A stretch of 64,000 nucleotides of DNA from an uncultured bacterium (GTDB lineage Bacteria > Chlamydiota > Chlamydiia > Chlamydiales > JAJFMA01). Positions 4,720 to 54,370 of this stretch are shown here, in pieces. The notes beneath the pieces were generated by a model. The model was not told the origin of the DNA and did no database searches. It was given only the letters and a program-made list of their open reading frames with translations. Where the stretch lies: positions 4,159-68,158 of the forward strand of contig CAYTFC010000003.1 of assembly GCA_964436955.1 (NCBI GenBank), given 5' to 3'. How positions within the stretch are numbered: position 1 is the first letter of the stretch; each line of letters opens with the position of its first letter. A program made the translations under genes and the position numbers.

Positions 4720-4740
4720 AAGTTTCCTAAGGAAGCAGCA

Positions 4741-16504: not shown

Positions 16505-16550
16505 GGTAGCAATCAGGGTCTCAGTGTCTGTGGTAAAAATCCGAAAAAAT
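16505..16550. repeat. truncated copy of the element C arm fused to a 17-mer also found next to element E
   Basis: TCTCAGTGTCTGTGGTAAAAATCCGAAAAAA matches 32744-32787 apart from an 8-nt deletion and one substitution; GGTAGCAATCAGGGTCT (16505-16521) is the reverse complement of 52600-52616. Confidence 0.6.
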
Positions 16551-19626: not shown

Positions 19627-19862
19627 TTTCGGGCTTATTCCTTCTCGATCCAGAAGTACTCTATGGCGATTGCCAAGCACAAGTCCTTGGCAACTTGCCG
19701 TTCACACTATCTTACTTAAGTCTCTGACCAGGATGTAGGTGGCAAATCTGGTTTTAACCAATTGAATATCTACTCTTTACATTGACTTGATCTCTGTTTG
19801 GTAACCTTACTTATGAAACCCACGATTTATCAATAAGAGTTACAAAAAAATGGAGTCATGAG

Positions 19863-24261: not shown

Positions 24262-24308
24262 CAATTCGACTTGCTCGTAGCTTCCGCGAAGCGGCATATT
24301 AAGTCGGG

Positions 24309-24337
24309 TTGAAATTAATCCCGTGGAGAGGTAAAAT
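24309..24337 (+). promoter_or_regulatory. promoter candidate for secA (TTGAAA - 17 nt - TAAAAT)
   Basis: TTGAAA 24309-24314, 17-nt spacer, TAAAAT 24332-24337; 50 nt upstream of the secA ATG. Confidence 0.4.
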
Positions 24338-27452: not shown

Positions 27453-27528
27453 TCCCTTTGAGATAATTGCATAAGTCGGGTTGGCTTTTTCCGCTTTGTA
27501 AATAGACTTAGAAAGACATTATTTGTTC

Positions 27529-32792: not shown

Positions 32793-32885
32793 AGACTTGT
32801 ATACCAGGCTAAACTAGCATTGGTGAAAACCGTCAAATATGTTACCTTCCATAATTAACGGTGTCTTTTCCTAGGCCTATATATT

Positions 32886-33866: not shown

Positions 33867-33874
33867 TAGATATC

Positions 33875-34735: not shown

Positions 34736-34737
34736 TC

Positions 34738-35367: not shown

Positions 35368-35379
35368 AGGTCAATAGAC

Positions 35380-36273: not shown

Positions 36274-36291
36274 TTGAAAGGGGCTTAAACG

Positions 36292-36567
36292 ATGTTCCAA
36301 ACACAAGTTGTGCAGCTGGCCTATAAGGGCCTTTTGCTGATTCTCATTCTCTCAGCGCCCCCGATTTTGATCAGTATGTTCTTTGGTATCATCGTGGCTA
36401 TCTTTCAGGCAGCAACGCAAATTCAGGAGCAAACTCTCTCTTTTACGGTTAAGTTGGTGGCTGTTACCTTAGTCTTGATGCTTCTTGGCCCTTGGTTAGG
36501 AGCTCAGATTATGAGTTTGGCAGTTGACGTTTTCAAAAACTTCCCCGTTTGGGCAAGGTCGGGATAA
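36292..36567 (+). CDS. sctS: T3SS export apparatus protein SctS (YscS/FliQ family)
   Basis: 91 aa, FQAATQIQEQTLSFTVKLVAV core motif, two TM helices. Confidence 0.9.
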   Translation: MFQTQVVQLAYKGLLLILILSAPPILISMFFGIIVAIFQAATQIQEQTLSFTVKLVAVTLVLMLLGPWLGAQIMSLAVDVFKNFPVWARSG

Positions 36568-36570
36568 TCG

Positions 36571-37443: not shown

Positions 37444-37600
37444 CCTTGTCTTTTATACCTTTTTTAGATTCTTATCCTGGCGCTTAAGAGTAAATGCAAT
37501 GTTCCCAATGTCAATTTTAGTTTAAAATATTGTTGATTAAAACTTTAATCATGCTTAAACTGCCTGATATCATTTTTTAATTAATGAGAAGAAATACTTG

Positions 37601-39058: not shown

Positions 39059-39107
39059 CCTTCGGCGCCTAGAGGATTATGGTTCTTGTGCTGTTCTGGT
39101 GAACATC

Positions 39108-40445: not shown

Positions 40446-40446
40446 A

Positions 40447-41424
40447 TCACATCAAACTTTGACGTAGCGCGCGCAATAATCGTAGCCATTTTGGCTTAGT
40501 GTGCCAGATGTGAAAGTAAGGGGTTTGCTCTCCTCCAAACGCGCGCAGAAAAGGTTCAACTCTTTCGATCATGCTTCCTTCAAAATTTAGAGTTCGACCC
40601 ATTTTAGAGGCTAATTTTATCGCCTCCCAAAATAGAAAACTACTGGCTCCGCTACTCCTCCACATTGGATCCGCTCCCGCCATTAAAGAATGAACTTCTT
40701 GGTTGTCCCAAGCAAGATAAAGTCCCGCATGCATTATTCCCTCTGAGTCTCTGGCAATCAAAATCTCACGACAGCCTTTTTCAGCACATGCCTTATCTAG
40801 TGATTTAATGGCGGCATCCGAATTAGGCACCTGTTTGTTTTGCCGCTCAAACGTTTTCCTTTGAATGTCGAGTAAACTGCGCAAGTCTTCTCCGAAAGAA
40901 CATGTCAGTTGCTTAGAAGCCTTCCGAATATCCGTCTTAATATTGCCCTTAAAGCTATTAAAGACAGCCTCAGGATTAGATAAATCTTTAAGAATGTATG
41001 TATATCGCACACTTGACTGAAAACCTTTCCAGTAGCAAGGCAACCAATTAGTTACGGAGTGATGCAAATACTGATTAAAATGCGCGATATTGGGGAAATC
41101 GGATAGGAGTTCAGTGTATATTTCGCATTCATAAGATGCCTTAGATACATGCTTTTGTCCTTTCGGATAGCTTAAAAATGGCCCCATTCTAGGAGTCAAT
41201 GGTGGCATATTAATCGTGGTTATCCCTAGTTTTTTTTTGGTAAAATAGGGCCAAACGCCGGCTACTTTGCCTTCCCGATAGACAATGGAGGCATCCCATC
41301 CTTCGATGCCGCAAACAGCATCTAACCAAAATGGCTGCACGTATAGTGGAAGAGCGGCGTGTTCATTCGCAAATTGACGGTAGGCGGTTTGTTTTTTTAA
41401 CTGCGCCATTTGTGAGCCTTGCAA
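40447..41424 (-). CDS. FemAB-like / GNAT-fold acyl- or aminoacyl-transferase
   Basis: 325 aa, two-lobed GNAT-like pattern (ILIARDSEGIMHAGLYLAWDNQEVHSLMAG ... SSFLFWEAIKLASKMG); 1-nt gap to the downstream deacetylase-like gene. Confidence 0.5.
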   Translation of the reverse strand: MQGSQMAQLKKQTAYRQFANEHAALPLYVQPFWLDAVCGIEGWDASIVYREGKVAGVWPYFTKKKLGITTINMPPLTPRMGPFLSYPKGQKHVSKASYECEIYTELLSDFPNIAHFNQYLHHSVTNWLPCYWKGFQSSVRYTYILKDLSNPEAVFNSFKGNIKTDIRKASKQLTCSFGEDLRSLLDIQRKTFERQNKQVPNSDAAIKSLDKACAEKGCREILIARDSEGIMHAGLYLAWDNQEVHSLMAGADPMWRSSGASSFLFWEAIKLASKMGRTLNFEGSMIERVEPFLRAFGGEQTPYFHIWHTKPKWLRLLRALRQSLM

Positions 41425-41452
41425 CGATGTGTCTTACACGAAATAACCACAT

Positions 41453-42187
41453 TTACTCCGATGCTAATCTAGCTAATACTCCACCATCACAGACAAATTC
41501 TTGGCCTGTGATACTACCTGATAAATCCGTATTCGCCAAAAATAAGGCGAGGGATGCAATTTCTTCGGGCCGTACAATACGGCCTAAAGGAGTAGATCTC
41601 TCTAAACGAAGCTTGGCCTCTTCATATTCTGAAGATCTGCTTAGGCTTCTTTTGAGCATCTCTGTGTTCACAGCTCCTGGCAAAATAGCATTCACGCGGA
41701 TATCAAGGGGCGCTAATTCAAGAGCAGCAGCTCGAGTAAATGCGCTCATCCCCCCTTTAGAGGTGACATAGGCGCACATTCCAGCCGAGGTCGCTCTGGC
41801 ATGAACCGACGAAATGTTCACAATCGAGCCTCCACTTAGTACTGGAGCAAATGCTTTGGTCATATAGAATGCGCCATTCAAATTAGTGGACATCACACGG
41901 TCCCATTCATCGATTGAGGTATCTAGTAACGATTTTTCGATCTGAATTGCCGCATTGTTAACCAAACAGTTAATGGTGCGATTCTCGGCTATGAATGCAT
42001 CTGCGAGACGTATCACTTGTGCTGGCTTACTAATATCTAACTCGATGTAGTTCCAGGCGCATTCGCTAGGCTTATCAGTGATGTCTAAACCGGTTACAAT
42101 CCATCCACGTTCAAAAAAGAGGTCTGCTATGGCTCTGCCAATACCTTGATTGCATCCAGTGATTAGAACATGCTTATTGTTGACCAA
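41453..42187 (-). CDS. short-chain dehydrogenase/reductase (SDR)
   Basis: VLITGCNQGIGRAIA cofactor motif, NISS, YVTSKGG (YxxxK) catalytic motif. Confidence 0.85.
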   Translation of the reverse strand: MVNNKHVLITGCNQGIGRAIADLFFERGWIVTGLDITDKPSECAWNYIELDISKPAQVIRLADAFIAENRTINCLVNNAAIQIEKSLLDTSIDEWDRVMSTNLNGAFYMTKAFAPVLSGGSIVNISSVHARATSAGMCAYVTSKGGMSAFTRAAALELAPLDIRVNAILPGAVNTEMLKRSLSRSSEYEEAKLRLERSTPLGRIVRPEEIASLALFLANTDLSGSITGQEFVCDGGVLARLASE

Positions 42188-43097
42188 TACCTAGCCCCTC
42201 CAGAAGCATATTAACGGAATTGATATGGACACGATCCCAACATACCAAGCTGCTGTTGGAGTTATGTGCGGCGAGGAAGACATTATTCATGCTACGTAGA
42301 GGGCTATTCAAGGCCAAGGGCTCGTGCTCAAAGACGTCTAATCCAGCTCCGGAAATTTGTTTGGTTTGCAAAGCCTGGACGAGATCAGATTCGTTAATTA
42401 ATGGCCCTCTGCCAGTATTGATAATAAAAGGACGGCGTTGCATTTGTGCAAAAGTAGCGGAGCTTAGGATATGCCTGGAGGTGGAATTAAGGTCGCAATG
42501 CAGAGAGATGATATCAGACTGACGTACTAACGTAGGAAGATCAACCATGGTGACATGTTCTTGTTCTTTTGACAAAATGTCATACGCCAAAATGCGCGCT
42601 CCACATGCTTGAAGTCGCTTTGCGAAGGCGGATCCTATTGCGCCGAGTCCAATGATTCCCACAGCGAGTTCAGAAAGGGCATATCCTTGTGGTTTGTGCC
42701 AGCCACCGCTCTTAAGAATGGAGTCATTGACAACGACATTGCGACAATAAGCTAGGGCATAAGCCAATGCTGTATCCGCAACGGGATCGGTGAAGGCGTT
42801 GGGGGTGCGGTAAACCTTAACCTGATATTTTTCGGCTTCGTCTTTCTGGATGGAATCGATACCGGTTCCCCATTTGACAACGACTTTAAGGTCTTTAGAT
42901 TGTTTATAGACGCTTTCACTAAAGCGATCATCCCCACAGATGATGCCATGCGCACCATTGAGATAGTGGATGAGCTCAGGTTCCTCAAGACGCTCTTCAA
43001 CGGCGGCCCAAACAACCTCTAAGGGTATTCCGCTTAAGAGAGGTTCGACCTTATGACGCTCACGCAGCATATAGGGCGCTGAAATTACGACTTTCAT
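42174..43097 (-). CDS. D-isomer-specific 2-hydroxyacid dehydrogenase family protein
   Basis: GIIGLGAIGSAFAKRL NAD motif, INTGRGPLINESDL, LDVFEHEP, AAHNS catalytic His region. Confidence 0.85.
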   Translation of the reverse strand: MKVVISAPYMLRERHKVEPLLSGIPLEVVWAAVEERLEEPELIHYLNGAHGIICGDDRFSESVYKQSKDLKVVVKWGTGIDSIQKDEAEKYQVKVYRTPNAFTDPVADTALAYALAYCRNVVVNDSILKSGGWHKPQGYALSELAVGIIGLGAIGSAFAKRLQACGARILAYDILSKEQEHVTMVDLPTLVRQSDIISLHCDLNSTSRHILSSATFAQMQRRPFIINTGRGPLINESDLVQALQTKQISGAGLDVFEHEPLALNSPLRSMNNVFLAAHNSNSSLVCWDRVHINSVNMLLEGLGIGQQ

Positions 43098-43101
43098 AAA
43101 A

Positions 43102-44661
43102 TCACATACTCTCTTTTGTCAATATGGCTCGTAGGGGAGCGCCATCGAGGTTTGGTAGATGCAGAGGTAGAGCGATAAGTTTGTATTTGCCGGGAGTTAC
43201 ATGCTTAAGATGTAGCCCCTCAACAATAATGGTATTTGCCTTCAGAAGAATTTCATGTGTGGCATTTGTGGGATCTTCAAACGCTTGTATCGAAGGTCCA
43301 TCGGTACCGATTAGATGGATGCCTTTTTGTACCAATAACTCAGCACTTTCGGGAGTAATTGCGATAAATTTTGGATCGAATTCTCCACACATTTCGGAAT
43401 TCTTTGTTTTAAGTAGAATGCGCGTAGTGGCAGCGGGAATATTTGCTGCGAGGAAGAACGACGGTTGGATATGGCCATTTCCGCGGTATTCTAGGACGTG
43501 AGCTTCGCCAATTAATTTGTCTAACCCGATGTCATGTGTAAAGGAACCGTCTTCAACAAAATGAAAGGGGGCATCCAGATGGGTTCCTGAGTGGGCACTT
43601 AACGAAACATGCGAAACATTGTGGCCATGTTCTGCCATCGTTTTGGTTTGAGAAATCTTTACGGGATGGTCGCCTGGCCACACAACCATACTAGAGGTAA
43701 TTGGTCGAGAAATGTCGATATATTCAGGTTTCATCGATGGCATATTGCTTTGCTGGCTAAAGGGCTTACGTGGGTAATAAAGTCGCCTACGCATCCCATC
43801 AGACATCGGTTCGCGATAGCGGTAGGCACGGAAAGTGCCCCAAAACTGCAAAAAGCGAAATAGCGGAATATCCATGAGGTTTGTGAGTAGTTTTCCATCC
43901 CTCAACGCATGGAAATAGTCTCCAATCGTATTCATGAGAGAGAATTTGGCAAAGCTCCACAAACCGAAATGATGATCCTTAAAGATCTCTTTGTAAGCTA
44001 GAGCCTCGCGGTAGTAGCGTCGATAGATCTGTGTGCTGGTTTCATCATGAATATGATAAACACTGGCTTCAGCAATGTATGCAATGCGATGGCCTTTTTG
44101 AAGGATGGCTTTGCCCCATGCGATGTCCTCTAGACCTGAGAGTGTTTCGTCAAATGGAGTTTGGTCCCATAAAGACCTTCGAATGGCCGAGTTGGCATTG
44201 TTGCAAAAGGCAAGCCCACAATCGGGATTGCTTTCCAGGGGAAACCATTTAGCAAAGATCTGATGTTCGGAATAGCGGGTTTGTTCATCACCTTGTTGAC
44301 GACCATAAACAAGCCCCACATTACTATCACGGCGAAGAGGTTCTACTAGATATTTCAACCACAATGTATTGGTGGGGTGGCAGTGTGCACTGATAACGAC
44401 TACTATGTTACCTTGTGCTTTGGCAATTCCCTGGTTTAACGAATAGCCAAATGTAAACTTCTCCGGAGATATTGTGACAATTTGTACAGGATAATCTCTG
44501 ACGATATCTAAAGTACCATCAATAGAACCAGAATCAACGACGATCACTTCAAAGGCAAGATCTATTTGTTGTGCATGAATTTCCTGAAGAAGACTCCCAA
44601 TATGCCTTGCTTCATTGTGAGTGCGGATGACAATGGAAATTTCGGGTTGCATCGAAGGCAT
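43102..44661 (-). CDS. fusion protein: N-terminal family-2 glycosyltransferase + C-terminal cyclase/kynurenine-formamidase-like domain
   Basis: GT2: ISIVIRTHNE, VIVVDSGSIDGT, LEDIAWG; cyclase family: AHSGTHLDAPFHF (HxGTHxDxPxH). Confidence 0.8.
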   Translation of the reverse strand: MPSMQPEISIVIRTHNEARHIGSLLQEIHAQQIDLAFEVIVVDSGSIDGTLDIVRDYPVQIVTISPEKFTFGYSLNQGIAKAQGNIVVVISAHCHPTNTLWLKYLVEPLRRDSNVGLVYGRQQGDEQTRYSEHQIFAKWFPLESNPDCGLAFCNNANSAIRRSLWDQTPFDETLSGLEDIAWGKAILQKGHRIAYIAEASVYHIHDETSTQIYRRYYREALAYKEIFKDHHFGLWSFAKFSLMNTIGDYFHALRDGKLLTNLMDIPLFRFLQFWGTFRAYRYREPMSDGMRRRLYYPRKPFSQQSNMPSMKPEYIDISRPITSSMVVWPGDHPVKISQTKTMAEHGHNVSHVSLSAHSGTHLDAPFHFVEDGSFTHDIGLDKLIGEAHVLEYRGNGHIQPSFFLAANIPAATTRILLKTKNSEMCGEFDPKFIAITPESAELLVQKGIHLIGTDGPSIQAFEDPTNATHEILLKANTIIVEGLHLKHVTPGKYKLIALPLHLPNLDGAPLRAILTKESM

Positions 44662-44785
44662 AGCAATAAAGGCCTATGTATCTTAGGGAGTTTGGATAAT
44701 CATGCGCGCCACTCTAAATTTAGTCAATTATTGACATAGCAAATATTACGAAAGACAGTATCGTCAAAATAAGGGAAACTATTAG

Positions 44786-44865
44786 GGCTGCCACTTCGGC
44801 GAAGTGGCTCTACATGTTTTGTTACACGTTGTAGCGCCGCTTCGCCGAAGCGGCATAAACAAAGG
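44786..44865. repeat. double-hairpin palindromic element (element D) in a divergent promoter region
   Basis: GCCACTTCG-G-CGAAGTGGC (44790-44808) and GCCGCTTCG-C-CGAAGCGGC (44836-44854); 44836-44865 matches 52651-52680 at 27/30. Confidence 0.85.
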
Positions 44866-44930
44866 CTTGGTATGGACATCGGATTCCTGGTATCGTTTTG
44901 ATATTCAACTCACAACCGCAGGGGACCAAA

Positions 44931-45677
44931 ATGAAGATCGTAGGTTGCATTCCCGCACGAATGGGGTCAAGTCGCTTTCCTGGAAAGCCTATGGAATTGA
45001 TCCATGGTGTACCGATGATTGGTCACGTCTATCTTAGAGCACGAGAGGCCACTTCCTTGAATGGGCTTTATGTAGCAACCTGTGATCAGGTAATCTTCGA
45101 TTACATCACCTCCATCGGAGGGATTGCAATTATGACTAGTGATGAACATCCAGGTTGTGTAGATCGTTGTACTGAAGCCTTATATGTTATAGAACAGCTA
45201 CAGGGAAAGCAGGTCGACGTGATGGTGATTATTCAGGGCGATGAACCTTTACTACGTCCAGAAATGATCGACGATGCGATTGCACCACTTAAGCAAGACC
45301 CTTCTATTTCCATTTCTAACTTGATGGGCCGCATTGAGGATCCTAAAGAGTTTAGTGATATCAATGAAATCAAGGTTGTGGTGGATTGTCATAGCAATGC
45401 TCTTTATTTTTCAAGAGAGCCAATTCCCTGCGGAAAAAAGGGGGAGGGCCATGCAAATCGATGGAAGCAAATTTGCATTATGCCAATACGTCGTGACTTG
45501 TTAATTCGATTTGGCGAAATGCCGCGCACATCACTAGAGATCTGTGAATCAATCGATATGTTAAGGCTATTGGAGAATGGTATTCCCGTTCGTATGGTGC
45601 CTACAAATCATGTGATGAAGAGTGTTGATACTCTAGAAGATCTTATTAAGGTTCGCGAATTAATGGAGGTTCATTAG
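44931..45677 (+). CDS. KdsB-like 3-deoxy-manno-octulosonate (or related ulosonic acid) cytidylyltransferase
   Basis: MKIVGCIPARMGSSRFPGKPM, IIQGDEPLL, ALYFSREPIP align by eye to E. coli KdsB; ATG 44931 preferred over TTG 44898. Confidence 0.8.
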   Translation: MKIVGCIPARMGSSRFPGKPMELIHGVPMIGHVYLRAREATSLNGLYVATCDQVIFDYITSIGGIAIMTSDEHPGCVDRCTEALYVIEQLQGKQVDVMVIIQGDEPLLRPEMIDDAIAPLKQDPSISISNLMGRIEDPKEFSDINEIKVVVDCHSNALYFSREPIPCGKKGEGHANRWKQICIMPIRRDLLIRFGEMPRTSLEICESIDMLRLLENGIPVRMVPTNHVMKSVDTLEDLIKVRELMEVH

Positions 45678-47449
45678 CCCGACGCCTCCACTGCTACCGG
45701 GTCTGTGCATAGGCGTTGGTAGAGATTAGATGTTTCTAACAACTCTTGATGCGTACCTTTCATCACAATGCGTCCAGCTTCTAGTACATGGATGCAATCA
45801 AAATTCTCAACTGTTGAAAGGCGATGCGCAATAGCTACTATCGTTTTACGACCAGCCATCTCCTTAATTGCTTGAGCGATGATCGATTCAGAAATATGAT
45901 CTAACGACGAAGTGGCTTCGTCAAACACAAGTATTTCTGGCTGATGGTAAAGCGCCCTAGCAATTCCCACGCGTTGCTTTTGTCCTCCTGAGAGCCTCAC
46001 GCCCCGTTCGCCAACGTGAGTGTTTGCTTTTTCAGGAAGTGTTTGCACAAATTCATGAAGATGGGCCATTACCAATGCATCGTGTAGCTTTTGGGTATCG
46101 ATAGTGGACTCACCAAATGCCACATTTTGAGCGATCGAGCCATCGACCAATGCGATGTCTTGCGGAACATAGCCAATTAGGTGCTTAATGCCCTGTAAAC
46201 TATGAACTGATTTGCCATCGATTTGGAATTTTCCTGAGTCAGGGGATAGTAAAGAAATCAGAATATCGACAAGAGTGCTTTTACCTACTCCAGATGGGCC
46301 CACAAAGGCAACCGAAGAATTTTTCATAATTTGGAAGCTAACGTCGTGTAAAACCTCTACGTCGTTTGAATAGGAGTAACATACATTTTCGAATGCTAAG
46401 CTACTTAAAAAGCTCCTTGCATGAGGCGAAAACTCTTGGTGCGTTGTTTCAATGTTTTTATGAAGTTCGAGATCTAAGCACTGCAAAGAGGCCTGAAATG
46501 CCTGCATTTGTATCCGTTGAGATACCACCTGGTTCACTGCGGGTAACAATCGCCTTCCCACTGCTCCCAGAAACAACATCGGAGCCACCAATTCAGAAGC
46601 GGGCCAATTCGAAAGTATCCAAACAACGACTACGCCTAGTAAGCCTATAAGAGCCACATATTCAATCAAGACCATAGGCACGGTTGGGTAGTAGACTGTT
46701 ACTGTTTGCGATCGTGCAATGCGCTTCACATAGCTGTCAAACAGCGAAGAAAAGTAGTTCTGTTTTTCATACAGCTTGACTTCTTTAAAGCTTAAAAGAC
46801 CATCGCTAATTGTTTGAAAAACTTTTGGAAAAATTGTTTCTTTTTCTTCTCCAGCCGCATTCATCGGTTTCTTTACAAGATGGTGCATCCAAGCACCAAT
46901 AAGTCCAAATAACGCAATCACTCCCATGGACAAAGCGAAAAATTCGGTTAATATCAGTATGGTCAAAAATATGGTCATGACGATAGCAGCAAGATAACGT
47001 AGATACTGCACCAGCGCATTTGCGCATTGGTCAATCGTAGTGGTACAGTTCTTCAGAAATAGCCCTGTATTACCTTTGATAAAGTCCTGATAGTTTTGAT
47101 GCAGATACCGATTAAAGATAAACAGCGCTTTTCTGCGATAGAATTGATAGGGAAATTTTGCAATTTGGTAGTTGAGGTACATCTGTAGCACAGATTTAAT
47201 GGTGATAGAAAGGCAGAATAGAACGGTAAGCCAAATGACTAGTTCCTTAGCTGTCCATTCCAAACCTGTCCAAACTTGTGCTACAGCAATGACGCGCTCC
47301 GGGTTACTGAGGACCTCCACATAGGGCACGATTAAAGCCAAGCCGAATGACTCGAAAAGAGAAAAGAAAATCATCAGGGCAAGGATAGCAAAAAAGCTAC
47401 GCTTTTCTTGAGTATTAAGGACGGCGATAATTAGCTTCCAGTTAGTCAC
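45674..47449 (-). CDS. ABC exporter, fused permease-ATPase (MsbA/PglK-like half transporter)
   Basis: 6-TM N-terminal domain; Walker A GPSGVGKST, signature LSGGQKQR, Walker B ILVFDEATSSLD. Confidence 0.9.
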   Translation of the reverse strand: MTNWKLIIAVLNTQEKRSFFAILALMIFFSLFESFGLALIVPYVEVLSNPERVIAVAQVWTGLEWTAKELVIWLTVLFCLSITIKSVLQMYLNYQIAKFPYQFYRRKALFIFNRYLHQNYQDFIKGNTGLFLKNCTTTIDQCANALVQYLRYLAAIVMTIFLTILILTEFFALSMGVIALFGLIGAWMHHLVKKPMNAAGEEKETIFPKVFQTISDGLLSFKEVKLYEKQNYFSSLFDSYVKRIARSQTVTVYYPTVPMVLIEYVALIGLLGVVVVWILSNWPASELVAPMLFLGAVGRRLLPAVNQVVSQRIQMQAFQASLQCLDLELHKNIETTHQEFSPHARSFLSSLAFENVCYSYSNDVEVLHDVSFQIMKNSSVAFVGPSGVGKSTLVDILISLLSPDSGKFQIDGKSVHSLQGIKHLIGYVPQDIALVDGSIAQNVAFGESTIDTQKLHDALVMAHLHEFVQTLPEKANTHVGERGVRLSGGQKQRVGIARALYHQPEILVFDEATSSLDHISESIIAQAIKEMAGRKTIVAIAHRLSTVENFDCIHVLEAGRIVMKGTHQELLETSNLYQRLCTDPVAVEASG

Positions 47450-47955
47450 TTTTTCGCTCCTACCGATTGTAAATCGGGAATAAGGCCATTCTTTAATAGG
47501 TATGTGGAACTGAATACGATGTCGTCAGTATAGTAGATGCGCCCGCCCACTGCTTCGATAGCCGCAATTTCTTCCTGCAGTTTAACGTCATCTGGCGTTT
47601 TCTGATACTCAATGCCTTTAATGTAAATGCTTGGAGCTAGCAGACGTATCGTAGGAGCCGCTGAGGGCCATCGATTGAGGCCAACATAATCAATGATGGA
47701 TAGAGCATTCAAATATTCACAACGTTGCCGGTGATTAAAAAAAGGTCTGCCTGGGCCTTTATTTACATAGCGATCTTCAGTCACCGTCACCACTAGAACA
47801 TCGCCTTGGCTCTTTGCTTCTTCAAAGTGCTTAAGGTGGCCGTAGTGTACAAGATCAAAGCACCCATGACAGTGAACGACACAAGTTCCCTGAGATTTTT
47901 TTAATGCGATTATTGCTGCCAGCTCATCTAGGTCTTTAATTTTATTTAAATCCAT
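47446..47955 (-). CDS. HxGH-type cytidylyl/adenylyl-transferase (RfaE domain II / TagD-like)
   Basis: HGCFDLVHYGHLKHFEEAK nucleotidyltransferase motif; IKGIEY ... GGRIYYT ... SSTYLL as in HldE domain II. Confidence 0.8.
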   Translation of the reverse strand: MDLNKIKDLDELAAIIALKKSQGTCVVHCHGCFDLVHYGHLKHFEEAKSQGDVLVVTVTEDRYVNKGPGRPFFNHRQRCEYLNALSIIDYVGLNRWPSAAPTIRLLAPSIYIKGIEYQKTPDDVKLQEEIAAIEAVGGRIYYTDDIVFSSTYLLKNGLIPDLQSVGAKK

Positions 47956-49447
47956 ATTTCAGCCCTTGTCTTAGATCCTCTATAGAAACCGGAATATTAC
48001 CTGTGCGGCTAACCTGGCATGCTGCAGCAAGACTGCCTAAAAAGGCACTTTCCCAAAGACTACCCCCAGCAATTAGAGTTAGGGCTGCGGCTGTCAGCAG
48101 GGAATCACCAGCGCCGGCAACGTCTTTTGGAGAGCTGTTAAGCGCTGGTAGCTTGTCTGTATGGAAAATAGACGAACCCGCTTCTGCGGAATACATAAGA
48201 ATACCTTCAGCGCCTAAAGTGATCACAACGTTCTGAGCATTACATTTATGGCAAAGGTTTTGAGCCAATACAGCCAAACCAGAATCATAGTCCTTTAGGG
48301 CAATTCGGGCTTCGCGCTCAGTGGGAGTAATGAGTTTCATTCCCATAAACCGTGATACGTCACCAATTTGTGAGGAGGACTGACTGTCTGCGACCATGGC
48401 AATGCCCTTGTCTGTGCAATGACGAGTAAGGACATCTACCATTGATTGGGGCAAACAGCCGTAGCTAAAATCGGAAAAAATGACGACGTCACATCCCTCA
48501 ATGCACTCTTGAAGGTCTTTCAACATGCGTTGAGATGTTTCATTCGAGATCGCATGTTGTCGCAGATGGTTAACTCGCAATAACGTTTTTCCTGCCGCGC
48601 GAAAACGTTGCTTGAGTGTAGTAGGTCGCTCGGGTTCAACATAAAATGTGGCCTTCACACCTTCTTGCATTAAGCGCTGACGAACAAAACTAGCAGGTTC
48701 ATCCTGACCTAATACGGAAAAGAACGAAACTTCTGCTCCTAAGCGCTTAGCATGGGCTGCAACTATAGCCGCTCCCCCCACAAACGTTTCGCGCATTAGA
48801 GGGCTGACAACTATGGTAGGATCCTCCTGTGACATGCCTAAGGCTTCACAATCAATGTATTCATCAATAATGGTATCTCCAATCACGCATACTTTGACGG
48901 AGGTAAATGATTCAAAAAGAGTAGGTAGGCGATGCAGTCCGCTTCCATGGCGCTCTAAAAAATTCGATGGAATATGGATGCCTGTTGCGGAGACCTCCTT
49001 GATCTGTTTTCTCAATAGATCAAAAGATGAAAACCCGATGTCTCCAGAGCAAAAGGCTAAGCGTCCTCCATACTTTTGTAATACCGCGGTTTCAGGATTA
49101 TCTCTTCCCTCGTGTTCCTTACCCTTAACAACAATTTCGGGACGCAGCCATTCCACAATTTGAGCAGATGGATCGCGCATGATGAATGCATGATCTACCC
49201 AAGTTGTCTCCTGAATTGCTTCCAAACGAATGGCCTCTGGCAGAAGAGTATCTGGAAAATCGTCTGATGTGACCCCCACAACCAAGCAATCGCCACTTTC
49301 AGCAGCGAAGCGTAATAGGCGTAAATGGCCAGGGTGAAGGATATTGAAATTGCCTGGGACAAAAACAATGCTACTGCCAGTACCGGCCTTGATCCTTATC
49401 TGTTCTAGATAATCCTTGCAGTTAACGGGAACTGTATTTGACACCAT
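47942..49447 (-). CDS. bifunctional HldE-like protein with inverted domain order (N-terminal HxGH nucleotidyltransferase + C-terminal PfkB sugar kinase)
   Basis: N-term PGNFNILHPGHLRLLRFA; C-term VCVIGDTIIDEY ... GGAAIVAAHAKRLGA ... DVAGAGDSLLTAAAL (PfkB signature). Confidence 0.8.
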   Translation of the reverse strand: MVSNTVPVNCKDYLEQIRIKAGTGSSIVFVPGNFNILHPGHLRLLRFAAESGDCLVVGVTSDDFPDTLLPEAIRLEAIQETTWVDHAFIMRDPSAQIVEWLRPEIVVKGKEHEGRDNPETAVLQKYGGRLAFCSGDIGFSSFDLLRKQIKEVSATGIHIPSNFLERHGSGLHRLPTLFESFTSVKVCVIGDTIIDEYIDCEALGMSQEDPTIVVSPLMRETFVGGAAIVAAHAKRLGAEVSFFSVLGQDEPASFVRQRLMQEGVKATFYVEPERPTTLKQRFRAAGKTLLRVNHLRQHAISNETSQRMLKDLQECIEGCDVVIFSDFSYGCLPQSMVDVLTRHCTDKGIAMVADSQSSSQIGDVSRFMGMKLITPTEREARIALKDYDSGLAVLAQNLCHKCNAQNVVITLGAEGILMYSAEAGSSIFHTDKLPALNSSPKDVAGAGDSLLTAAALTLIAGGSLWESAFLGSLAAACQVSRTGNIPVSIEDLRQGLKYGFK

Positions 49448-49473
49448 ATTTTAAACTCCTCCCACCTAAGTAT

Positions 49474-51444
49474 TTAGTATGCTTTTGCCAACTTGGGTTG
49501 GAGAAGCGTTGTAGACCCAGGCCCGACTGGGAGTAGTTTTGGGTGCTGTCTATCAATGAACCAATGATACCACAGTTCGAAATTGGCGAAATACAATAGC
49601 CGGCGAGCGGCTCGTGTAGTACCAGATCTGTCATTGAGCACGTCTTCTAGAGCCGAGCGCTTAAAGACAGCTCGCTCTTTAAGCTGCTCCACTCGCTTTC
49701 GCAACACCTGCTCTATTGATCCGGTAATAAAGTCGGCTTCTGGTATGCCAAAGCCCTTTTTCTTCATTTCCAAGCAGGAAGGATGGATGTATTTTGCACT
49801 TAGTTTTCGTAAAAGATACTTGGATTGATCTTTACGCCATTTCAAATGGGTGGGTAAGCGGAAGCAGAATTCCACCAAGTCGCGATCTAGATAGGGAAAC
49901 CTGCCCTCTATATGAAACCGCATCAAAAACCTGTCTGAGGTATGATTGTGATGAGTTCCTATATAGAATTTCATGTCTGCATAAGACAAAGCTTGGAATG
50001 AGTCCGTGAACTTTTTTAGATCTGGCGAAGCGCTTCTGATAGCTGCTAGTGCATCAATATTATCGTCTAAAAGATTATCTGCAAAGACGCTCGCGGGATT
50101 TTCATAAAGGTAGGAAGCAAAGAGTCTTCTAAAGATATCAAAGGGATCACTACTTTCCATGATTCGCGCAGCGGTTGTAAGGCGACCTTTTCGAGGGATA
50201 AAAGGTGCCAAAAAGGAAAGATGCTTCAACCATGGCCAATGTTGCTGGAGGTTTCTGTAGTATCCATACCCTCCCATCAATTCATCCGGTCCAAGTCCGT
50301 TTAAAATAACGCGAATTCCATGTTTTGAGATATTTTGTGCAATGGGGTAGTGTGGTTCTAAAGCTCCAATAGGTTCTTCAAATACCCATAGCATATCATC
50401 CAGAGAACCCATTAAGTCTTCTTTGCGAAACCTTGTAATGGTATGTGACAAGTTATGCATTTTTGCAGTTGCATGCGCCTGATCCAGTTCACTCAGGGAA
50501 TCAAGCGCTGTGTCATATGCCAATGTAAAGGCTCGGATAGTCGGGTGCATACTTGCAGCTATCGCCGTCATGGTTGTGGAATCTAACCCACCGCTCATGA
50601 GTGTCCCTACTTCCACATCAGCGATCAAGCATCTCTTGATAGCTTGATGAAGAAGCTCTTCGTAACGCTCTAAAGCCTTTTCTTCGCTAATGTCCAGCTG
50701 CTGACCTACTGGCAAATCCCAGTATTGAACAATTTGCTTTGAACCAACAGCTCTACCACTTAAGTAATGGCCAGGAGATAGCGCAAAGGCATCTTTGTAA
50801 GAGGTAGATGGCCTGGGAGAGCCCTGAAAAGCTATTCCTAAACAGAGTCCATTCCAGTTCGGTTTTGGATCGTAAAGGCCAGAAGCAATCAGAGTTGTCA
50901 TGTCCGAAGCAAAGACAAAGGAGCTCTCTCTTTGGTGATAGTATAACGGTTTTATTCCGATACAATCCCTAGCAATAAAAATAGAACGCTCCACAGCATC
51001 ATAAATGGCAAAGGCATACATGCCGCGAAATTTATCCAGTGCGTTATTACCCCATTGAAGATAGGCCTTTAGAACGACTTCGGTATCCGAGTCGCTGTAG
51101 AAATCCCATCCATGGCTTTCAAGTTCAGTACGAATCTCCAAAAAATTGTAGACCTCGCCATTGTACGTAAGCCAAAAGCGTCCTGAAGAAGCAGACATTG
51201 GCTGCGCTGCGCGATCGCTCAGATCGATAATTTTTAGGCGCGTATGCAGCAATGCGCCGAATACTAACGTATTGGGGTCTATCGCTTCGTTGAATGATGA
51301 AACCGTGCCTTGATTTGTGAAGAATACCCACCCTTGACCATCAGGACCACGGTCATAAAGAGTGCTTAAACAGCGTTGAGCCATCGCCAATGCCAGAGTA
51401 AAAGGCAGAGGATTGTCCAGAAAGAAGCCGGCAATACCACACAT
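49474..51444 (-). CDS. asparagine synthase (glutamine-hydrolysing)-family amidotransferase
   Basis: MCGIAGFF Ntn-Cys start, PP-loop LMSGGLDST; 656 aa. Confidence 0.9.
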   Translation of the reverse strand: MCGIAGFFLDNPLPFTLALAMAQRCLSTLYDRGPDGQGWVFFTNQGTVSSFNEAIDPNTLVFGALLHTRLKIIDLSDRAAQPMSASSGRFWLTYNGEVYNFLEIRTELESHGWDFYSDSDTEVVLKAYLQWGNNALDKFRGMYAFAIYDAVERSIFIARDCIGIKPLYYHQRESSFVFASDMTTLIASGLYDPKPNWNGLCLGIAFQGSPRPSTSYKDAFALSPGHYLSGRAVGSKQIVQYWDLPVGQQLDISEEKALERYEELLHQAIKRCLIADVEVGTLMSGGLDSTTMTAIAASMHPTIRAFTLAYDTALDSLSELDQAHATAKMHNLSHTITRFRKEDLMGSLDDMLWVFEEPIGALEPHYPIAQNISKHGIRVILNGLGPDELMGGYGYYRNLQQHWPWLKHLSFLAPFIPRKGRLTTAARIMESSDPFDIFRRLFASYLYENPASVFADNLLDDNIDALAAIRSASPDLKKFTDSFQALSYADMKFYIGTHHNHTSDRFLMRFHIEGRFPYLDRDLVEFCFRLPTHLKWRKDQSKYLLRKLSAKYIHPSCLEMKKKGFGIPEADFITGSIEQVLRKRVEQLKERAVFKRSALEDVLNDRSGTTRAARRLLYFANFELWYHWFIDRQHPKLLPVGPGSTTLLQPKLAKAY

Positions 51445-51463
51445 ACTTTTTTACTCCTATTGG

Positions 51464-52534
51464 CTAAGTCAATGATAATCCCTTAAAAAAGCTTCGAAAT
51501 TCCTGAAACACTAGTTCTGGGTGCAAGGCCCACAGGCATGCATGATCGGTGCAATCGACAGCATTCTTAAATCGGCTGGTATTTCTTCCTACCCAAACAT
51601 TACAAGGTCCACAAGAAGGGTTAGAGGAAACATCTCGATGCATTTTAGGATTTAGCCACTCATAGCCAAATTGACTGGGGCTTGAACCACCCCAAACAAT
51701 GAAGGTGGGCTTCTTAAGGGAAGCAGCAATATGCATTAAACCGCTATCATGTCCAACAAGAACACTGCTTTGTTTAATAATATTCATAACCTCACTCAGA
51801 TTTGTCTTCCCAACTAGAGATGCTACCCCAGGAATATTCTCCTGCATAATTATTTGAGCATTGATCTGCTCGTTTTTATCGCCCAGTAAAATAAACTGAT
51901 GGCTTCGAAAGGCTTTTGATGCCATTTTGAGCCACTCTATCCAGTATTCTAATGGCCACGTTTTAAAGGCAAAAAGGTTATTCGCCGCGGTAGGCTGAAT
52001 GGCAATATAGGGCAAAGTTGTGTCTATGGAAGTAGGCTGCGCGGTTGAAAAACATCTTGCTATAGTATCCTCTGAAAATGCCATCATATCAGGCAACATA
52101 TCGTCATTTGTGGCATGGGGGACGCTAAGGCGCAGATTTTGAATTGCAGCATGAATACCTGTTGCGGGTGGTTGAGTAGTAGCATTTGCTCCTAGAAGCA
52201 GCCACAGTCTTTTTCCTTCTAGGGTGCCGATGATTTTGCGTCCTATCAATCGAGAGGTGAGGATGTTTTCCTTCGTTGCAGCTAGATAGCTGAGATAGAC
52301 TTCGTCAAACGCTTTATAGTTGTCTTTTACCAGACCAAATAGCGAGGCCATTGAGTCTTGGATAGAAATGGCGTTATCTAAAAGGCCGGTATCTTTGAAT
52401 AATACATCAGAGAAGTATTGCGATTGAAATATACCGGTGACGATACGCCCAGTTGCCTTTAGATTTTTTAATAAAGGAATCATGAGCAACGCATCGCCAA
52501 GTCCGGCGTTAATGTAGACAGCAGCTCGTATCAC
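51464..52534 (-). CDS. glycosyltransferase family 9 (LPS heptosyltransferase-type)
   Basis: GLGDALLMIPLLKNLK N-terminus, VGHDSGLMHIAASLKKPTFIVWGG C-terminal motif; GTG start. Confidence 0.8.
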   Translation of the reverse strand: MIRAAVYINAGLGDALLMIPLLKNLKATGRIVTGIFQSQYFSDVLFKDTGLLDNAISIQDSMASLFGLVKDNYKAFDEVYLSYLAATKENILTSRLIGRKIIGTLEGKRLWLLLGANATTQPPATGIHAAIQNLRLSVPHATNDDMLPDMMAFSEDTIARCFSTAQPTSIDTTLPYIAIQPTAANNLFAFKTWPLEYWIEWLKMASKAFRSHQFILLGDKNEQINAQIIMQENIPGVASLVGKTNLSEVMNIIKQSSVLVGHDSGLMHIAASLKKPTFIVWGGSSPSQFGYEWLNPKMHRDVSSNPSCGPCNVWVGRNTSRFKNAVDCTDHACLWALHPELVFQEFRSFFKGLSLT

Positions 52535-52599
52535 AGTAAAATCCAGAATTTAGTATTGTGGAAACTCTAGCATAATGTGAAATTTGATGTGTAGAGGTT

Positions 52600-52705
52600 A
52601 GACCCTGATTGCTACCCAATGCAGTCAACTTAAAATAAACCTTTGTTAATGCCGCTTCGCCGAAGTGGTATTAACAAAGGTTTATTTTAAGTTGACAGCA
52701 TTGGG
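52600..52705. repeat. 91-nt hairpin palindrome (element E) plus flanking 17-mer, in a divergent promoter region
   Basis: 45-nt arms 52615-52659 / 52661-52705 with 3 mismatches (two are G:T); core GCCGCTTCGCCGAAGTGG related to element D. Confidence 0.85.
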
Positions 52706-52755
52706 TGGCAAGTCGGGTTTAAAGCTTGGGCATCGATAATTCCAAGCCGATCACC

Positions 52756-52784
52756 TTGTCAAAAATAAGTTATTTCAATATTGT
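52756..52784 (+). promoter_or_regulatory. promoter candidate (TTGTCA - 17 nt - TATTGT) for the 52820 gene
   Basis: Hexamers at 52756-52761 and 52779-52784; the implied start site lies downstream of TTG 52781, which supports ATG 52820. Confidence 0.35.
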
Positions 52785-52819: not shown

Positions 52820-54370
52820 ATGTATCAACTTATAAACAAAATGGACTTCGAAGCTATCAGATTTCGGGGCCTTCTAGTAGTGGGTTGGGCCTTATTTGGC
52901 GCTTTTGTGGCGACATATTTGCTTTATTGGTACAGCGTTGGTGGCGATGCTTCTATCTACCTGCCTTATGCTAAGTGGATGTTCCATTCTCCATTTAGTT
53001 ATGGTGTTAGAGGCAATATCGCGTATGGAGCATCTTCTCCCCTTTGGGCCTTATTTATCTCGGTTTTCTATAGTCCTTCTGACACGGTATACTTGTACAG
53101 TTTAAAGGTCGCCAATTTAGCACTATTCCTTGGTTCAATTGTGATCCTCACCAAGAGCCTAAAGGTGCCTTTTTTACCGTTGTTTTTCTTAATCACAGTG
53201 AATGTCTCGGGTGTTTTCGAGTTTTTTCTGCTTTATGAAAATGCTCTTATCTTGTTTTGGATTGCCCTCGTGGTGCATTGCATTTGCAAGAACGACGTGC
53301 GTCGTTTACTTTGGGTAACTGCATTTTTACCTTTGGTTCGTGGTGAATTTGTGTTTATTCAGGTGGCTTGTCTGTATGCCTTCAGAAGGGAAATTCACAT
53401 TAAGCACCTATTATGGCAATGCGTGCCCTTTGGTCTTTATGCTGGTTACATGTTTTTTAATACGGATTCTCTTATCCCTTCGAGTGTGTTGACGCAAATT
53501 TTGAAAAACCGTCTTGCCTCACTAGAGCGTACTGACCGTCATTGGATACTCCAAATACTGGCAAATCTGTTCAACAATCCATACGCGTTAGCCTATCTGA
53601 TTTTTCTCACTGTCGCTGGTCTTTGCAAGGTTCCGCGAATGGAAAAGCTCTTTAGCGTATGCTTCTGGTCTTTGCTAGCAATGTTTCTTGTTGCAATACT
53701 ATTGCAACCATCGCTTCGATATAGTTCGGAGTTCTTTTCGCTTGGCAGTATTGCCTGTGCCGTTTACTTGCATCATTTTCTGGCGAAGAATCGTCTGCCC
53801 GACTCATCTTTAGTATTTTCCGCAGTTATCGTGATTATGTTTTTTACTTGGACGAACCTCTTCTTCCAGGAGTTTAAAGCCAGAAAGGAAAACTCTGAAG
53901 GACTTGCTTCTACATGGTACAGTCGCACAGTGCCCGATATGGCAAATATTCTTAATCAAGTAATGCTACCTGATGATAAAGTCCTCATCTATGAAATTCA
54001 GGGTCAGTATCACTTGAATCAACGTGCAGTATCTATGGACGGAGTAGTCGGCGGACAAGCTACGCCATATTTATTGATGGGAATCAAGGCTGGTAAACCC
54101 ACCATGGATGCTAGTTATGCAGATTTCATAGAGCAGCACCAGTATTTAGTATTAGGTCATGGTACGGGCGGAACTCTTTTCAAGGGAACAGCATACGATT
54201 TTCTAAATGACACTTGCGAGACATTAAATGTCGGAGATCATTGTCGCTATGGATCTTTGATCTTCACGAAGATAGCACAAAACCCTCGTTGGACAACAAA
54301 GGGGCAAAAGATAGACGAAACGTGGCGATCAATTTTTAAGATCGACCATGCTTCCCAAACAGCTGACTAA
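52820..54370 (+). CDS. polytopic membrane protein, GT-C / ArnT- or O-antigen-polymerase-like (function uncertain)
   Basis: ~10-12 hydrophobic helices over the first ~360 aa, then a ~150-aa soluble C-terminal domain; located in the glycan island. Confidence 0.55.
   Translation: MYQLINKMDFEAIRFRGLLVVGWALFGAFVATYLLYWYSVGGDASIYLPYAKWMFHSPFSYGVRGNIAYGASSPLWALFISVFYSPSDTVYLYSLKVANLALFLGSIVILTKSLKVPFLPLFFLITVNVSGVFEFFLLYENALILFWIALVVHCICKNDVRRLLWVTAFLPLVRGEFVFIQVACLYAFRREIHIKHLLWQCVPFGLYAGYMFFNTDSLIPSSVLTQILKNRLASLERTDRHWILQILANLFNNPYALAYLIFLTVAGLCKVPRMEKLFSVCFWSLLAMFLVAILLQPSLRYSSEFFSLGSIACAVYLHHFLAKNRLPDSSLVFSAVIVIMFFTWTNLFFQEFKARKENSEGLASTWYSRTVPDMANILNQVMLPDDKVLIYEIQGQYHLNQRAVSMDGVVGGQATPYLLMGIKAGKPTMDASYADFIEQHQYLVLGHGTGGTLFKGTAYDFLNDTCETLNVGDHCRYGSLIFTKIAQNPRWTTKGQKIDETWRSIFKIDHASQTAD

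What the first reader, a model, noticed from the sequence alone, without database searches (positions are those of the whole stretch)
52600..52705. 91-nt hairpin with G:U-compatible mismatches in the second divergent promoter region (element E)
Seen: the 45-nt arms (52615-52659 / 52661-52705) have three mismatches. Two are G opposite T when read on the plus strand, so they are wobble-compatible only in a plus-strand RNA; the third is A/A. The apex is the GCCGCTTCG-C-CGAAGTGG motif shared with element D. The left flank is the 17-mer also present at 16505-16521. A TTGTCA-17-TATTGT promoter candidate for the membrane-protein gene lies 51 nt downstream. Inference: this is the same cis element as D, embedded here in a longer stem. 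Two wobble-compatible mismatches are too few to assign a strand preference.
Basis: seen in the sequence. Interest (0 to 1): 0.55.

Follow-up and report, generated by a model that had tools for sequence, protein, structure and literature searches.

The report
MITE-like foldback repeat in a chlamydia
The long hairpin between two divergent cell-envelope genes of an uncultured groundwater chlamydia is most likely one copy of a small, multi-copy palindromic DNA repeat built from modules found elsewhere in the same genome, and not a dedicated regulatory RNA, so it is an ordinary kind of feature in a little-studied lineage.

Summary
The inverted repeat is 125 bp (52598-52722, 62-nt arms, 87% complementary, 1 nt between), not 91 nt. 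It has 8 mismatches: 5 are G:T on the plus strand and none is A:C.

The host is an environmental Chlamydiales MAG from groundwater.

The element is a mosaic of modules that recur elsewhere:
- The apex is a REP-like GC hairpin with a 14-nt flank. It is also present at 24276, 44786, 44830 and just past the window end. Those copies carry a GTAG tail; E does not.
- The arm interior recurs as a solo 44-nt copy in another metagenome contig.
- The terminal 17-mer is the terminal inverted repeat of a larger element. That element ends this very contig, and in a relative it bounds a 310-bp MITE with perfect 21-nt TIRs.

Independent k=31 assemblies of the same organism break at 52629 and 52694. This implies a repeat unit of 52600-52723 present elsewhere. 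The same logic reproduces the boundaries of four other inverted repeats.

The wobble bias (p about 0.06-0.12) is not shared by other hairpin repeats. It partly reflects subfamily variants and one indel.

Best reading: a foldback MITE/BIME-like dispersed repeat. Any promoter, terminator or RNA role is unproven.

The parts
52598..52722 (.). Whole foldback element E: 62-nt arms around centre 52660. The repeat unit inferred from assembly breaks is 52600-52723.
   Evidence: the repeat finder; mismatch list; folds; Logan contig ends at 52629 and 52694.
52651..52669 (.). Apex: REP-like GC hairpin GCCGCTTCG-C-CGAAGTGGT, without a GTAG tail.
   Evidence: Motif search; alignment with four other copies.
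52637..52650 (+). 14-nt 'head-flank' module AAACCTTTGTTAAT. Its mirror ATTAACAAAGGTTT is at 52670-52683.
   Evidence: Shared with D at 44855-44868 and with the copy at L017 11913-11946.
52684..52705 (+). Arm-interior module (ATTTTAAGTTGACAGCATTGGG). Its mirror is at 52615-52636.
   Evidence: A solo copy in JGI contig Ga0206975_1050 (L007 1356-1399) matches 52687-52730 at 86% over 44 nt.
52600..52616 (+). Left terminal 17-mer AGACCCTGATTGCTACC, a TIR-family motif.
   Evidence: Identical at 16505-16521 (minus strand) and at the contig end, L017 14650-14666. One mismatch to the perfect 21-nt TIRs of the L013 MITE.
52706..52722 (+). Right terminal variant TGGCAAGTCGGGTTTAA, carrying AAGTCGGGTT.
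   Evidence: AAGTCGGGTT occurs 3 times, all on the plus strand, against 0.11 expected. It is aligned with the TIR family.
44780..44868 (.). Element D: two inverted GTAG-tailed REP-like hairpins plus the 14-nt head flank. It is related to E by the apex module.
   Evidence: repeat boundaries from Logan contig ends at 44809 and 44839.
24276..24312 (+). Degenerate relative: GTAG + hairpin + GCATATT + AAGTCGGGTT. It looks like an E right arm with an internal deletion.
27465..27485 (+). Fragment GCATAAGTCGGGTTG, lying 13 nt after the secA stop codon.
16498..16521 (-). Solo TIR copy GTTTTGGTAGCAATCAGGGTCT. It abuts a fragment of the arm of the 32551-32784 element.
   Evidence: (D6).
19723..19764 (+). 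Degenerate arm-like copy (GGTGGCAAATCTGGTTTTAACC).
   Evidence: blastn; nhmmer E = 6.5e-5.
52609..52636 (+). Sigma-70-like hexamers inside the left arm (TTGCTA-16-TAAAAT, 9/12), firing inward across the apex.
   Evidence: Consensus scan only; not evidence of function.
52684..52711 (-). Mirror sigma-70-like site inside the right arm (TTGCCA-16-TAAAAT, 10/12), firing leftwards towards the GT9 gene.
   Evidence: Consensus scan only; not evidence of function.
52756..52784 (+). Promoter-like TTGTCA-17-TATTGT for the 516-aa membrane-protein gene (ATG at 52820).
   Evidence: gene call.
51464..52534 (-). GT9 heptosyltransferase-family gene. The GTG start at 52534 is supported by a conserved N-terminus.
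   Evidence: Pfam; alignment with homologues.
52820..54370 (+). 516-aa membrane-protein gene with no family assignment, diverging from the element.
   Evidence: ORF list; no Pfam or NCBIfam hit; called gene.

Best explanation
E is one copy of a roughly 124-bp non-coding 'foldback' dispersed repeat. It is MITE-like in architecture and BIME-like in its mosaic make-up. The host is a repeat-rich environmental Chlamydiales genome.

The two arms are inverted copies of one composite unit, reading from outside to centre:
- a terminal TIR-family motif,
- an arm-interior module,
- the 14-nt REP head flank,
- half of a REP-like GC hairpin.

The whole element therefore folds into a near-perfect hairpin as a by-product of how it is built.

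It most likely reached the GT9/membrane-protein intergenic region by transposition, or by recombination-mediated spread of the unit. It is mobilised in trans by an element whose terminal inverted repeats it shares.

Shown here: the structure, the modular relationships, and the existence of TIR-bounded relatives.

Inferred: multi-copy status of the full unit, mobility, and the identity of the mobilising enzyme.

Any effect on the neighbouring genes is secondary and untested. Candidates are inward-facing promoter-like hexamers in each arm, a terminator-like core, and cruciform potential.
For: 1. Modules recur.
- The apex hairpin plus flank is found in D, at 24276, and at window-equivalent 64455.
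- The arm interior recurs as a solo 44-nt copy (86%) in an unrelated locus of JGI contig Ga0206975_1050.
- The terminal 17-mer occurs three times in the 71.5-kb contig.

2. The terminal motif behaves as a transposon end.
- In the relative GCA_030679955.1 it forms perfect 21-nt TIRs (GACCCAGATTGCTACCAAAAC) around 268 nt, flanked by ATA/ATA.
- In the window's own genome, both the MEGAHIT k127 contig and the Logan contig terminate inside an element that begins with the same TIR.

3. Assembly breaks point to a multi-copy unit.
- Logan k=31 contigs of the same organism end at 52629 and restart at 52694.
- The terminal 30-mers are unique in the whole contig on both strands. The breaks therefore need copies elsewhere, and they imply a repeat unit of 52600-52723.
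- The same arithmetic gives boundaries within 0-4 nt of inverted-repeat ends at 4677-4724, 27530, 32785, 44780-44868, and at L013 5073.
- The k127 assembly bridges E (124 nt, shorter than 127) but not the longer TIR element.

4. No RNA-family or strand-bias support.
- No Rfam family reaches its threshold.
- Other hairpin repeats in the window show no wobble strand bias: 2:2, 4:4, 1:1 and 1:1.

5. Genomic context is unrestricted. Family members lie in divergent, tandem and convergent intergenic regions alike.
Against: - No second full-length copy of E was recovered. Pattern scans of GTDB genomes and JGI metagenomes gave only one solo arm and chance 20-mers, and peptide-based searches found nothing.
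- Multi-copy status therefore rests on assembly-graph inference. Coverage dropout or strain variation is a weaker alternative cause of the breaks.
- No clear target-site duplication. TA/TA is part of the palindrome, and a 3-bp duplication as in L013 does not fit (TTA vs TAA).
- No transposase or RAYT is present among the called genes of the 71.5-kb contig, apart from a truncated IS at its left end whose end is not convincingly similar.
- All transition mismatches are wobble-compatible on the plus strand (5:0, or 4:0 after the indel correction). This leaves some room for RNA-level or ssDNA-level selection.
Confidence: 0.7

Rival explanations
1. A plus-strand structured RNA. The hairpin would be part of a long 5' leader of the membrane-protein gene, transcribed from a promoter left of it, or a small RNA. 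It would be kept foldable on the plus strand by selection.
For: - All 5 transition-type mismatches are G:U-compatible on the plus strand only.
- The plus-strand fold is 17 kcal/mol more stable than the minus-strand fold.
- A 10/12 promoter-like site at 52515-52542 fires rightwards into the element.
- G:T pairing in REP stems has been taken as a hint of RNA function (PMC3733652).
Against: - 5:0 gives two-sided p = 0.06 (4:0 gives 0.125) and was picked post hoc. Five other inverted repeats in the window show no bias.
- The deviating bases all sit in the right arm. They partly match subfamily variants: AAGTCGGGTT occurs at three sites, and both GCCA/TGGC and GCCG/CGGC stems occur in D.
- Measured against the polarity of the REP module, E's 'forward' strand is the minus strand, which carries the A:C mismatches.
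- No Rfam hit. No covariation data are obtainable.
Confidence: 0.1
2. A bidirectional intrinsic terminator or insulator that stops read-through between the two divergent transcription units.
For: The inner stem (52637-52683) has a GC-rich top, an A-tract upstream and TTATTTT downstream. It is scored terminator-like on the plus strand, and the palindrome gives the same tail on the minus strand. A related hairpin sits 15 nt after a stop codon at 24276.
Against: - Both neighbouring genes point away from the element, so no upstream gene's transcript arrives to be terminated.
- The U-tract is short (4 U).
- Family members are not confined to gene 3' ends.
Confidence: 0.07
3. A DNA-level regulatory site. 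This would be either an operator for a dimeric DNA-binding protein or a cruciform that extrudes under the negative supercoiling generated between divergent promoters, coupling expression of the two envelope operons.
For: - Location between back-to-back promoter-like sites (52581-52552 on the minus strand, 52756-52784 on the plus strand).
- Near-perfect palindrome with a 1-nt centre and AT-rich arms; ssDNA fold of -53 kcal/mol.
- D sits in a similar divergent region.
Against: - 125 bp is far larger than an operator.
- The modules occur in all kinds of intergenic context.
- The unit appears multi-copy.
- There is no associated regulator gene.
- Cruciform formation is a property of any such repeat, not evidence of selection.
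Confidence: 0.07
4. A REPIN/BIME-type element spread by a RAYT (IS200/IS605-like tyrosine transposase) acting on the REP-like hairpin, rather than by a DDE transposase acting on the outer TIRs.
For: The apex belongs to a family of hairpins that carry a GTAG tail in D (tail-to-tail doublet), at 24276, and in degenerate form (GTAAG) at 64455. GTAG-tailed REPs and their dimers are the RAYT substrates described in PMC3733652.
Against: E itself has no GTAG on either side of the hairpin; both sides carry the 'head' flank. No Y1 transposase gene is present in the 71.5-kb contig. E's outer ends match a TIR-bounded element instead.
Confidence: 0.12

Closest known systems
Bacterial MITEs that fold into long hairpins (e.g. 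Neisseria Correia elements; enterobacterial ERIC/IRU, about 127-bp imperfect palindromes)
   Same: - Size about 125 bp, non-coding and intergenic.
- Terminal inverted repeats and strong hairpin potential.
- AT-rich (TA) junctions.
- Promoter-like hexamers near the ends.
- Apparent multi-copy status.
- Termini shared with a longer TIR-bounded element.
   Different: - The whole element is a palindrome (foldback), rather than TIRs around a unique core.
- No demonstrable target-site duplication.
- No cognate transposase identified.
- The apex is a REP-like hairpin module.
- No sequence similarity to those families. The resemblance is architectural and rests on my knowledge of those families, not on a database hit.
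REP / REPIN / BIME elements (GTAG-tagged palindromes; PMC3733652; Bertels and Rainey 2011, as cited there)
   Same: - A short GC-rich hairpin family scattered in intergenic regions.
- Occurs as singlets and as an inverted doublet (D).
- Mosaic combination with other short motifs, as in E. coli BIMEs.
- G:T pairs in stems.
   Different: - E's hairpin lacks the defining GTAG tail.
- The E unit is much longer than a REP.
- The outer ends are TIR-like.
- No RAYT gene seen.
310-bp MITE in Chlamydiales MAG GCA_030679955.1 (L013 4764-5073) and the TIR element at the end of this contig
   Same: Terminal motif GACCCWGATTGCTACC (16/16 or 15/16 identical to E's left end). Same clade of organisms. The assembly breaks at its boundary.
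   Different: Interior unrelated to E. After the 17-mer the TIR continues AAAAC rather than CAATGC. Not a foldback.

Membership tests
MITE | Small (under about 500 bp) and non-coding | tested here: met
   125 bp. All six frames are closed by stop codons within the element.
MITE | Terminal inverted repeats | tested here: met
   62-nt arms. The outer 17 nt equal the TIR motif of TIR-bounded elements.
MITE | Target-site duplication flanking the TIRs | tested here: inconclusive
   TA/TA can be read at 52599-52600 and 52720-52721, but it is part of the palindrome. A 3-bp duplication as in L013 (ATA/ATA) does not fit (TTA vs TAA).
MITE | Multiple copies in the genome | tested here: inconclusive
   Indirect only. 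The k=31 contigs break exactly at 52600 and 52723, with terminal 30-mers unique in the contig. Partial copies exist. No second full copy was retrieved.
MITE | Cognate autonomous element with matching TIRs and a transposase | not testable with these tools
   An element with the same TIR begins at the contig end, but only 122 nt are available. The rest of the genome could not be fetched.
REP / REPIN (GTAG type) | 20-40-nt palindrome with a GTAG tail at one end | tested here: not met
   E's apex has TTAAT on both sides. GTAG is present in D, at 24276, and in degenerate form at 64455 (definition from PMC3733652).
REP / REPIN (GTAG type) | Associated RAYT gene in the genome | not testable with these tools
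   No Y1_Tnp hit among the called genes of the 71.5-kb contig. The rest of the genome was not seen.
Intrinsic (rho-independent) terminator | GC-rich stem followed by a U-tract, downstream of a transcription unit | tested here: not met
   Stem plus TTATTTT is scored terminator-like, but both flanking genes diverge from the element.
Integron attC site | R'' RYYYAAC ... R' GTTRRRY ends in the correct orientation, in a cassette context | tested here: not met
   Only one end matches (GTTAGAC at 52597-52603), and on the wrong side. There is no integrase or cassette array.
Any Rfam family | Score at or above the gathering threshold | tested here: not met
   The best hits are generic miRNA-hairpin models at 40 bits against a gathering threshold of 113.

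The most novel reading that the evidence does not exclude
The E-type foldback repeat has been domesticated as a promoter cassette or supercoiling-sensitive switch for LPS-core genes. Each arm would carry an inward-firing sigma-66-type promoter (TTGCYA-16-TAAAAT), so the element drives both divergent operons through a shared hairpin. The plus-strand-only wobble pattern would reflect selection on the resulting leader RNA.
Probability: 0.07. Interest if true: 0.5.

Novelty: new member of a known kind. Interest (0 to 1): 0.2.

Why it matters
Mainly as annotation hygiene.

- In this environmental chlamydial genome, long intergenic hairpins are dispersed repeats, with at least six families in 71.5 kb. 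They should not be read as locus-specific riboswitches, sRNAs or operators.
- The repeats explain where short-k assemblies of this lineage fragment.
- The finding documents REP-like and MITE-like mosaic repeats in Chlamydiales. Two literature searches here turned up no description of them. They could serve as strain markers or as sources of promoters, terminators and rearrangements near envelope genes.

Nothing here challenges current understanding.

Tried and rejected
- Exact-pattern scans for the D/E core (GAAGYGGYATWAACAAAGGYTT) found 0 hits in GTDB genomes and in JGI metagenomes. The window's genome is not in the GTDB set.
- The arm pattern gave one real hit in the metagenome scan (L007). 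In the GTDB genome scan it gave five 20-21-nt matches with no extension, with about 4 expected by chance.
- A viral-contig scan for the TIR gave 0 hits.
- Peptide tricks to catch spurious ORFs over other copies failed. A concatenated six-frame query returned nothing, not even the known L013 ORF, so that negative is uninformative. The representatives search with the 53-aa frame gave one spurious repeat protein.
- Orthologous-locus comparison was not possible. The closest GT9 homologue is 47% identical, in a different gene order, and its neighbouring 527-aa protein is unrelated to the window's 516-aa protein.
- The IS next to secA in L015 does not carry the TIR motif.
- The truncated IS at the contig's left end shows only weak similarity to the TIR (TTGCC-CCCAA).
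- attC, Rfam families and a palindrome-induced assembly artefact were considered and rejected. No 30-mer is shared between E's two arms.
- An inversion-breakpoint idea was dropped.

Full report
**What is there**

The sequence at 52598-52722 is an almost perfect palindrome: two 62-nt arms, 87% complementary, separated by one base. The '17-mer left flank' is in fact the outer part of the left arm.

The full list of mismatches is:
- five G:T or T:G on the plus strand: 52601/52719, 52607/52713, 52613/52707, 52651/52669 and 52654/52666;
- no A:C;
- three non-wobble: 52606/52714, 52608/52712 and 52623/52697.

The 52606-52608 cluster is better described as an indel (AATCAGGG vs AAGTCGGG). That leaves four clean transitions.

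Folded as RNA, the plus strand reaches -89.3 kcal/mol and the minus strand -72.2 (z about -13 for both). As single-stranded DNA it reaches -53. The apex motif, the 17-mer repeat and the TTGTCA-17-TATTGT site are all confirmed.

**Context**

- The element lies in a 285-nt divergent intergenic region.
- To the left is a GT9 heptosyltransferase-family gene on the minus strand. Its GTG start at 52534 is supported by N-terminal conservation with homologues.
- To the right is a 516-aa membrane protein with no Pfam or NCBIfam family, starting at ATG 52820.
- The surrounding genes make LPS-core and sugar-nucleotide functions.
- SecA in the window is 84% identical to that of a 'Chlamydiales bacterium' MAG and 71% identical to Protochlamydia.
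- The window is part of a 71,544-nt MEGAHIT contig from a groundwater metagenome, which I rebuilt exactly from fetched loci.
- Close relatives are scarce. The best GT9 homologue is 47% identical, in a different gene order, so orthologous-site comparison is impossible.

**The element is a mosaic of recurring modules**

1. Apex.
   - The 19-nt GC hairpin with a 14-nt flank (CCTTTGTTAAT-GCCGCTTCG...) aligns with four other copies. These are the two hairpins of element D (44786-44814 and 44830-44858), one at 24276, 15 nt after a stop codon, and one just beyond the window end (L017 11913-11946).
   - Those copies carry a GTAG (or GTAAG) tail on one side. This is the hallmark of REP elements as defined in PMC3733652.
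   - E has the 'head' flank on both sides and no GTAG. It looks like a symmetrised head half.

2. Arm interior.
   - TTAAGTTGACAGCATTGGGTRGCAA...GGGTTT recurs as a solo, non-palindromic copy in JGI contig Ga0206975_1050.
   - The match is 86% over 44 nt, it lies in a locus with no coding similarity to the window, and it is next to a different repeat.

3. Termini.
   - AGACCCTGATTGCTACC occurs three times in the contig (52600; 16505 reversed; window-equivalent 67192).
   - In the related MAG GCA_030679955.1 the same motif forms perfect 21-nt terminal inverted repeats around 268 nt, flanked by ATA on both sides. That is a textbook MITE.
   - In the window's own genome both assemblies stop inside an element that starts with the same TIR.
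   - The right terminus of E is a variant (GGCAAGTCGGGTTT). Its core AAGTCGGGTT occurs at three sites in the window against 0.11 expected.
   - At 24276-24312 this core is joined directly to a REP hairpin, as if an E arm had lost its interior.
   - A profile of the seven arm or TIR copies finds no more in about 170 kb of available sequence from the clade.

**Evidence that the whole unit is multi-copy**

Logan assemblies (k=31, from my knowledge of that resource) of a run containing the identical organism tile the contig as ..4706, 4695-27559..., 32756-44809, 44839-52629 and 52694-67214. The k=31 value is consistent with the 97-100-nt offsets from the k127 contig ends seen here.

A de Bruijn contig that enters a repeat stops 29 nt inside it. 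That arithmetic gives repeat units of 4677-4724, 27530-, -32785, 44780-44868 and 52600-52723. Each lies within 0-4 nt of an independently detected inverted-repeat boundary. In the relative, the same arithmetic gives the exact last base of the perfect TIR (L013 5073).

The terminal 30-mers are unique in the whole 71.5-kb contig on both strands, and E's two arms share no 30-mer. The breaks therefore cannot be a palindrome artefact and need copies elsewhere in the sample. The k127 assembly bridges E, which is 124 nt, but not the longer TIR element.

This is an inference, not a direct count. Coverage loss at hairpins is the alternative, but it would not place the breaks at the repeat edges five times.

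**The wobble bias**

- Five of five (or four of four) transitions favouring the plus strand gives a two-sided binomial p of 0.06 (or 0.125). This is my calculation.
- The other inverted repeats in the window give 2:2, 4:4, 1:1 and 1:1.
- All deviating bases are in the right arm.
- Some correspond to variants seen elsewhere: AAGTCGGGTT, and the GCCA/TGGC vs GCCG/CGGC stems of D.
- Relative to the polarity of the REP module, E's forward strand is the minus strand, which carries the A:C mismatches.
- If the terminal 30-mers are indeed shared with another copy, the outer mismatches are inherited family features rather than local selection.

**How it most likely works**

E is a foldback, MITE-like and BIME-like dispersed repeat. 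Its hairpin is a consequence of its construction from two inverted copies of a composite unit. It was probably spread in trans by the element whose TIRs it shares.

Possible side effects on the locus rest on consensus matches only:
- Each arm has inward-facing sigma-70-like hexamers (TTGCYA-16-TAAAAT, 9-10 of 12).
- The core is terminator-like in both directions.
- The position between back-to-back promoter-like sites favours cruciform extrusion.

No Rfam family fits. Terminator, attC, operator and structured-leader readings are discussed under rivals and in the membership tests.

**Limits**

- No second full copy was retrieved.
- There is no clear target-site duplication.
- No transposase is linked to the element.
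- Two peptide-based searches were negative, one of them uninformatively.

**Verdict**

This is a real structure with an ordinary explanation. It is a new member of a known kind (hairpin-forming dispersed repeats) in an under-described lineage. Interest is low.

Noticed in passing
window 32551-32784 (also 16522-16549; L007 1228-1345): A 234-bp element with 73-nt arms (93%) made of CACAGAG-type heptad repeats and ending in AAAAATCC(T)AAAAAAA. A solo arm fragment abuts the TIR copy at 16505, and a similar repeat sits next to the solo E arm in L007. A Logan contig break implies it is multi-copy (boundary 32785).
   Followed up: partly
window 27529-27778: A 250-bp nested palindrome with outer arms of 43 nt at 98%. 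It contains seven small hairpins with tetraloop-like tops (CCCCAAAAGGGG, CCCCGAACGGGG, CCCGCTTCGGGG and others) just downstream of secA. The Logan contig ends at 27559, implying a repeat starting at 27530.
   Followed up: partly
window 4677-4724: A hairpin repeat (GTCTGCCTCG-C-CGAGGCAGAC inside a longer imperfect stem) between convergent genes. Overlapping Logan contig ends at 4706 and 4695 imply a 48-nt multi-copy unit.
   Followed up: partly
L017 14650-14772 (window-equivalent 67192-67314) and L013 4764-5073: A TIR-bounded element family with TIR GACCCWGATTGCTACCAAAAC. In the relative it is a 310-bp MITE with perfect 21-nt TIRs and ATA/ATA flanks. In this genome it starts on the stop codon of a YjeF-type gene and ends the contig. 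The 10 nt outside the TIR are also similar in the two genomes (AAAGAYCTAW), which may indicate a target preference.
   Followed up: partly
L018 1-127 (contig left end, window-equivalent -4229 to -4103): The end of an insertion sequence with an outward-reading transposase start (GGAGGATGACATGAGCCAAAAAAGACAAAGACG...). Both assemblies break at its boundary. The sequence immediately outside is an AAAGGACATAAAGGAC motif.
   Followed up: no
window 13541-13698; L013 13100-13150: Tandem and inverted AAAGGACC(T/A)AAAGGAC 16-mers in intergenic DNA. The same motif follows secA in the relative and flanks the IS and TIR-element insertions. It may be another short repeat family, or an insertion target.
   Followed up: no
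window 24309-24359: A 52-nt stretch upstream of secA is 90% identical to the corresponding region in relatives whose SecA is 87% identical (L015, L016). This is a conserved leader or promoter. It starts with a small hairpin (CGGGTTGAAATTAATCCCG) whose stem differs in the relative.
   Followed up: no
window 51464-52534: The GT9 gene most likely starts at GTG 52534, not at the downstream ATG 52483. Residues 2-20 (IRAAVYINAGLGDALLMIPLL) are conserved in homologues. No Shine-Dalgarno-like sequence precedes it.
   Followed up: yes
window 33102-44809 (L006) and L022: Type III secretion genes (FliP/SctR, SctS, SctT, SctL, SctJ) lie next to the LPS and sugar-modification genes. This is consistent with a chlamydial genome.
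   Followed up: no
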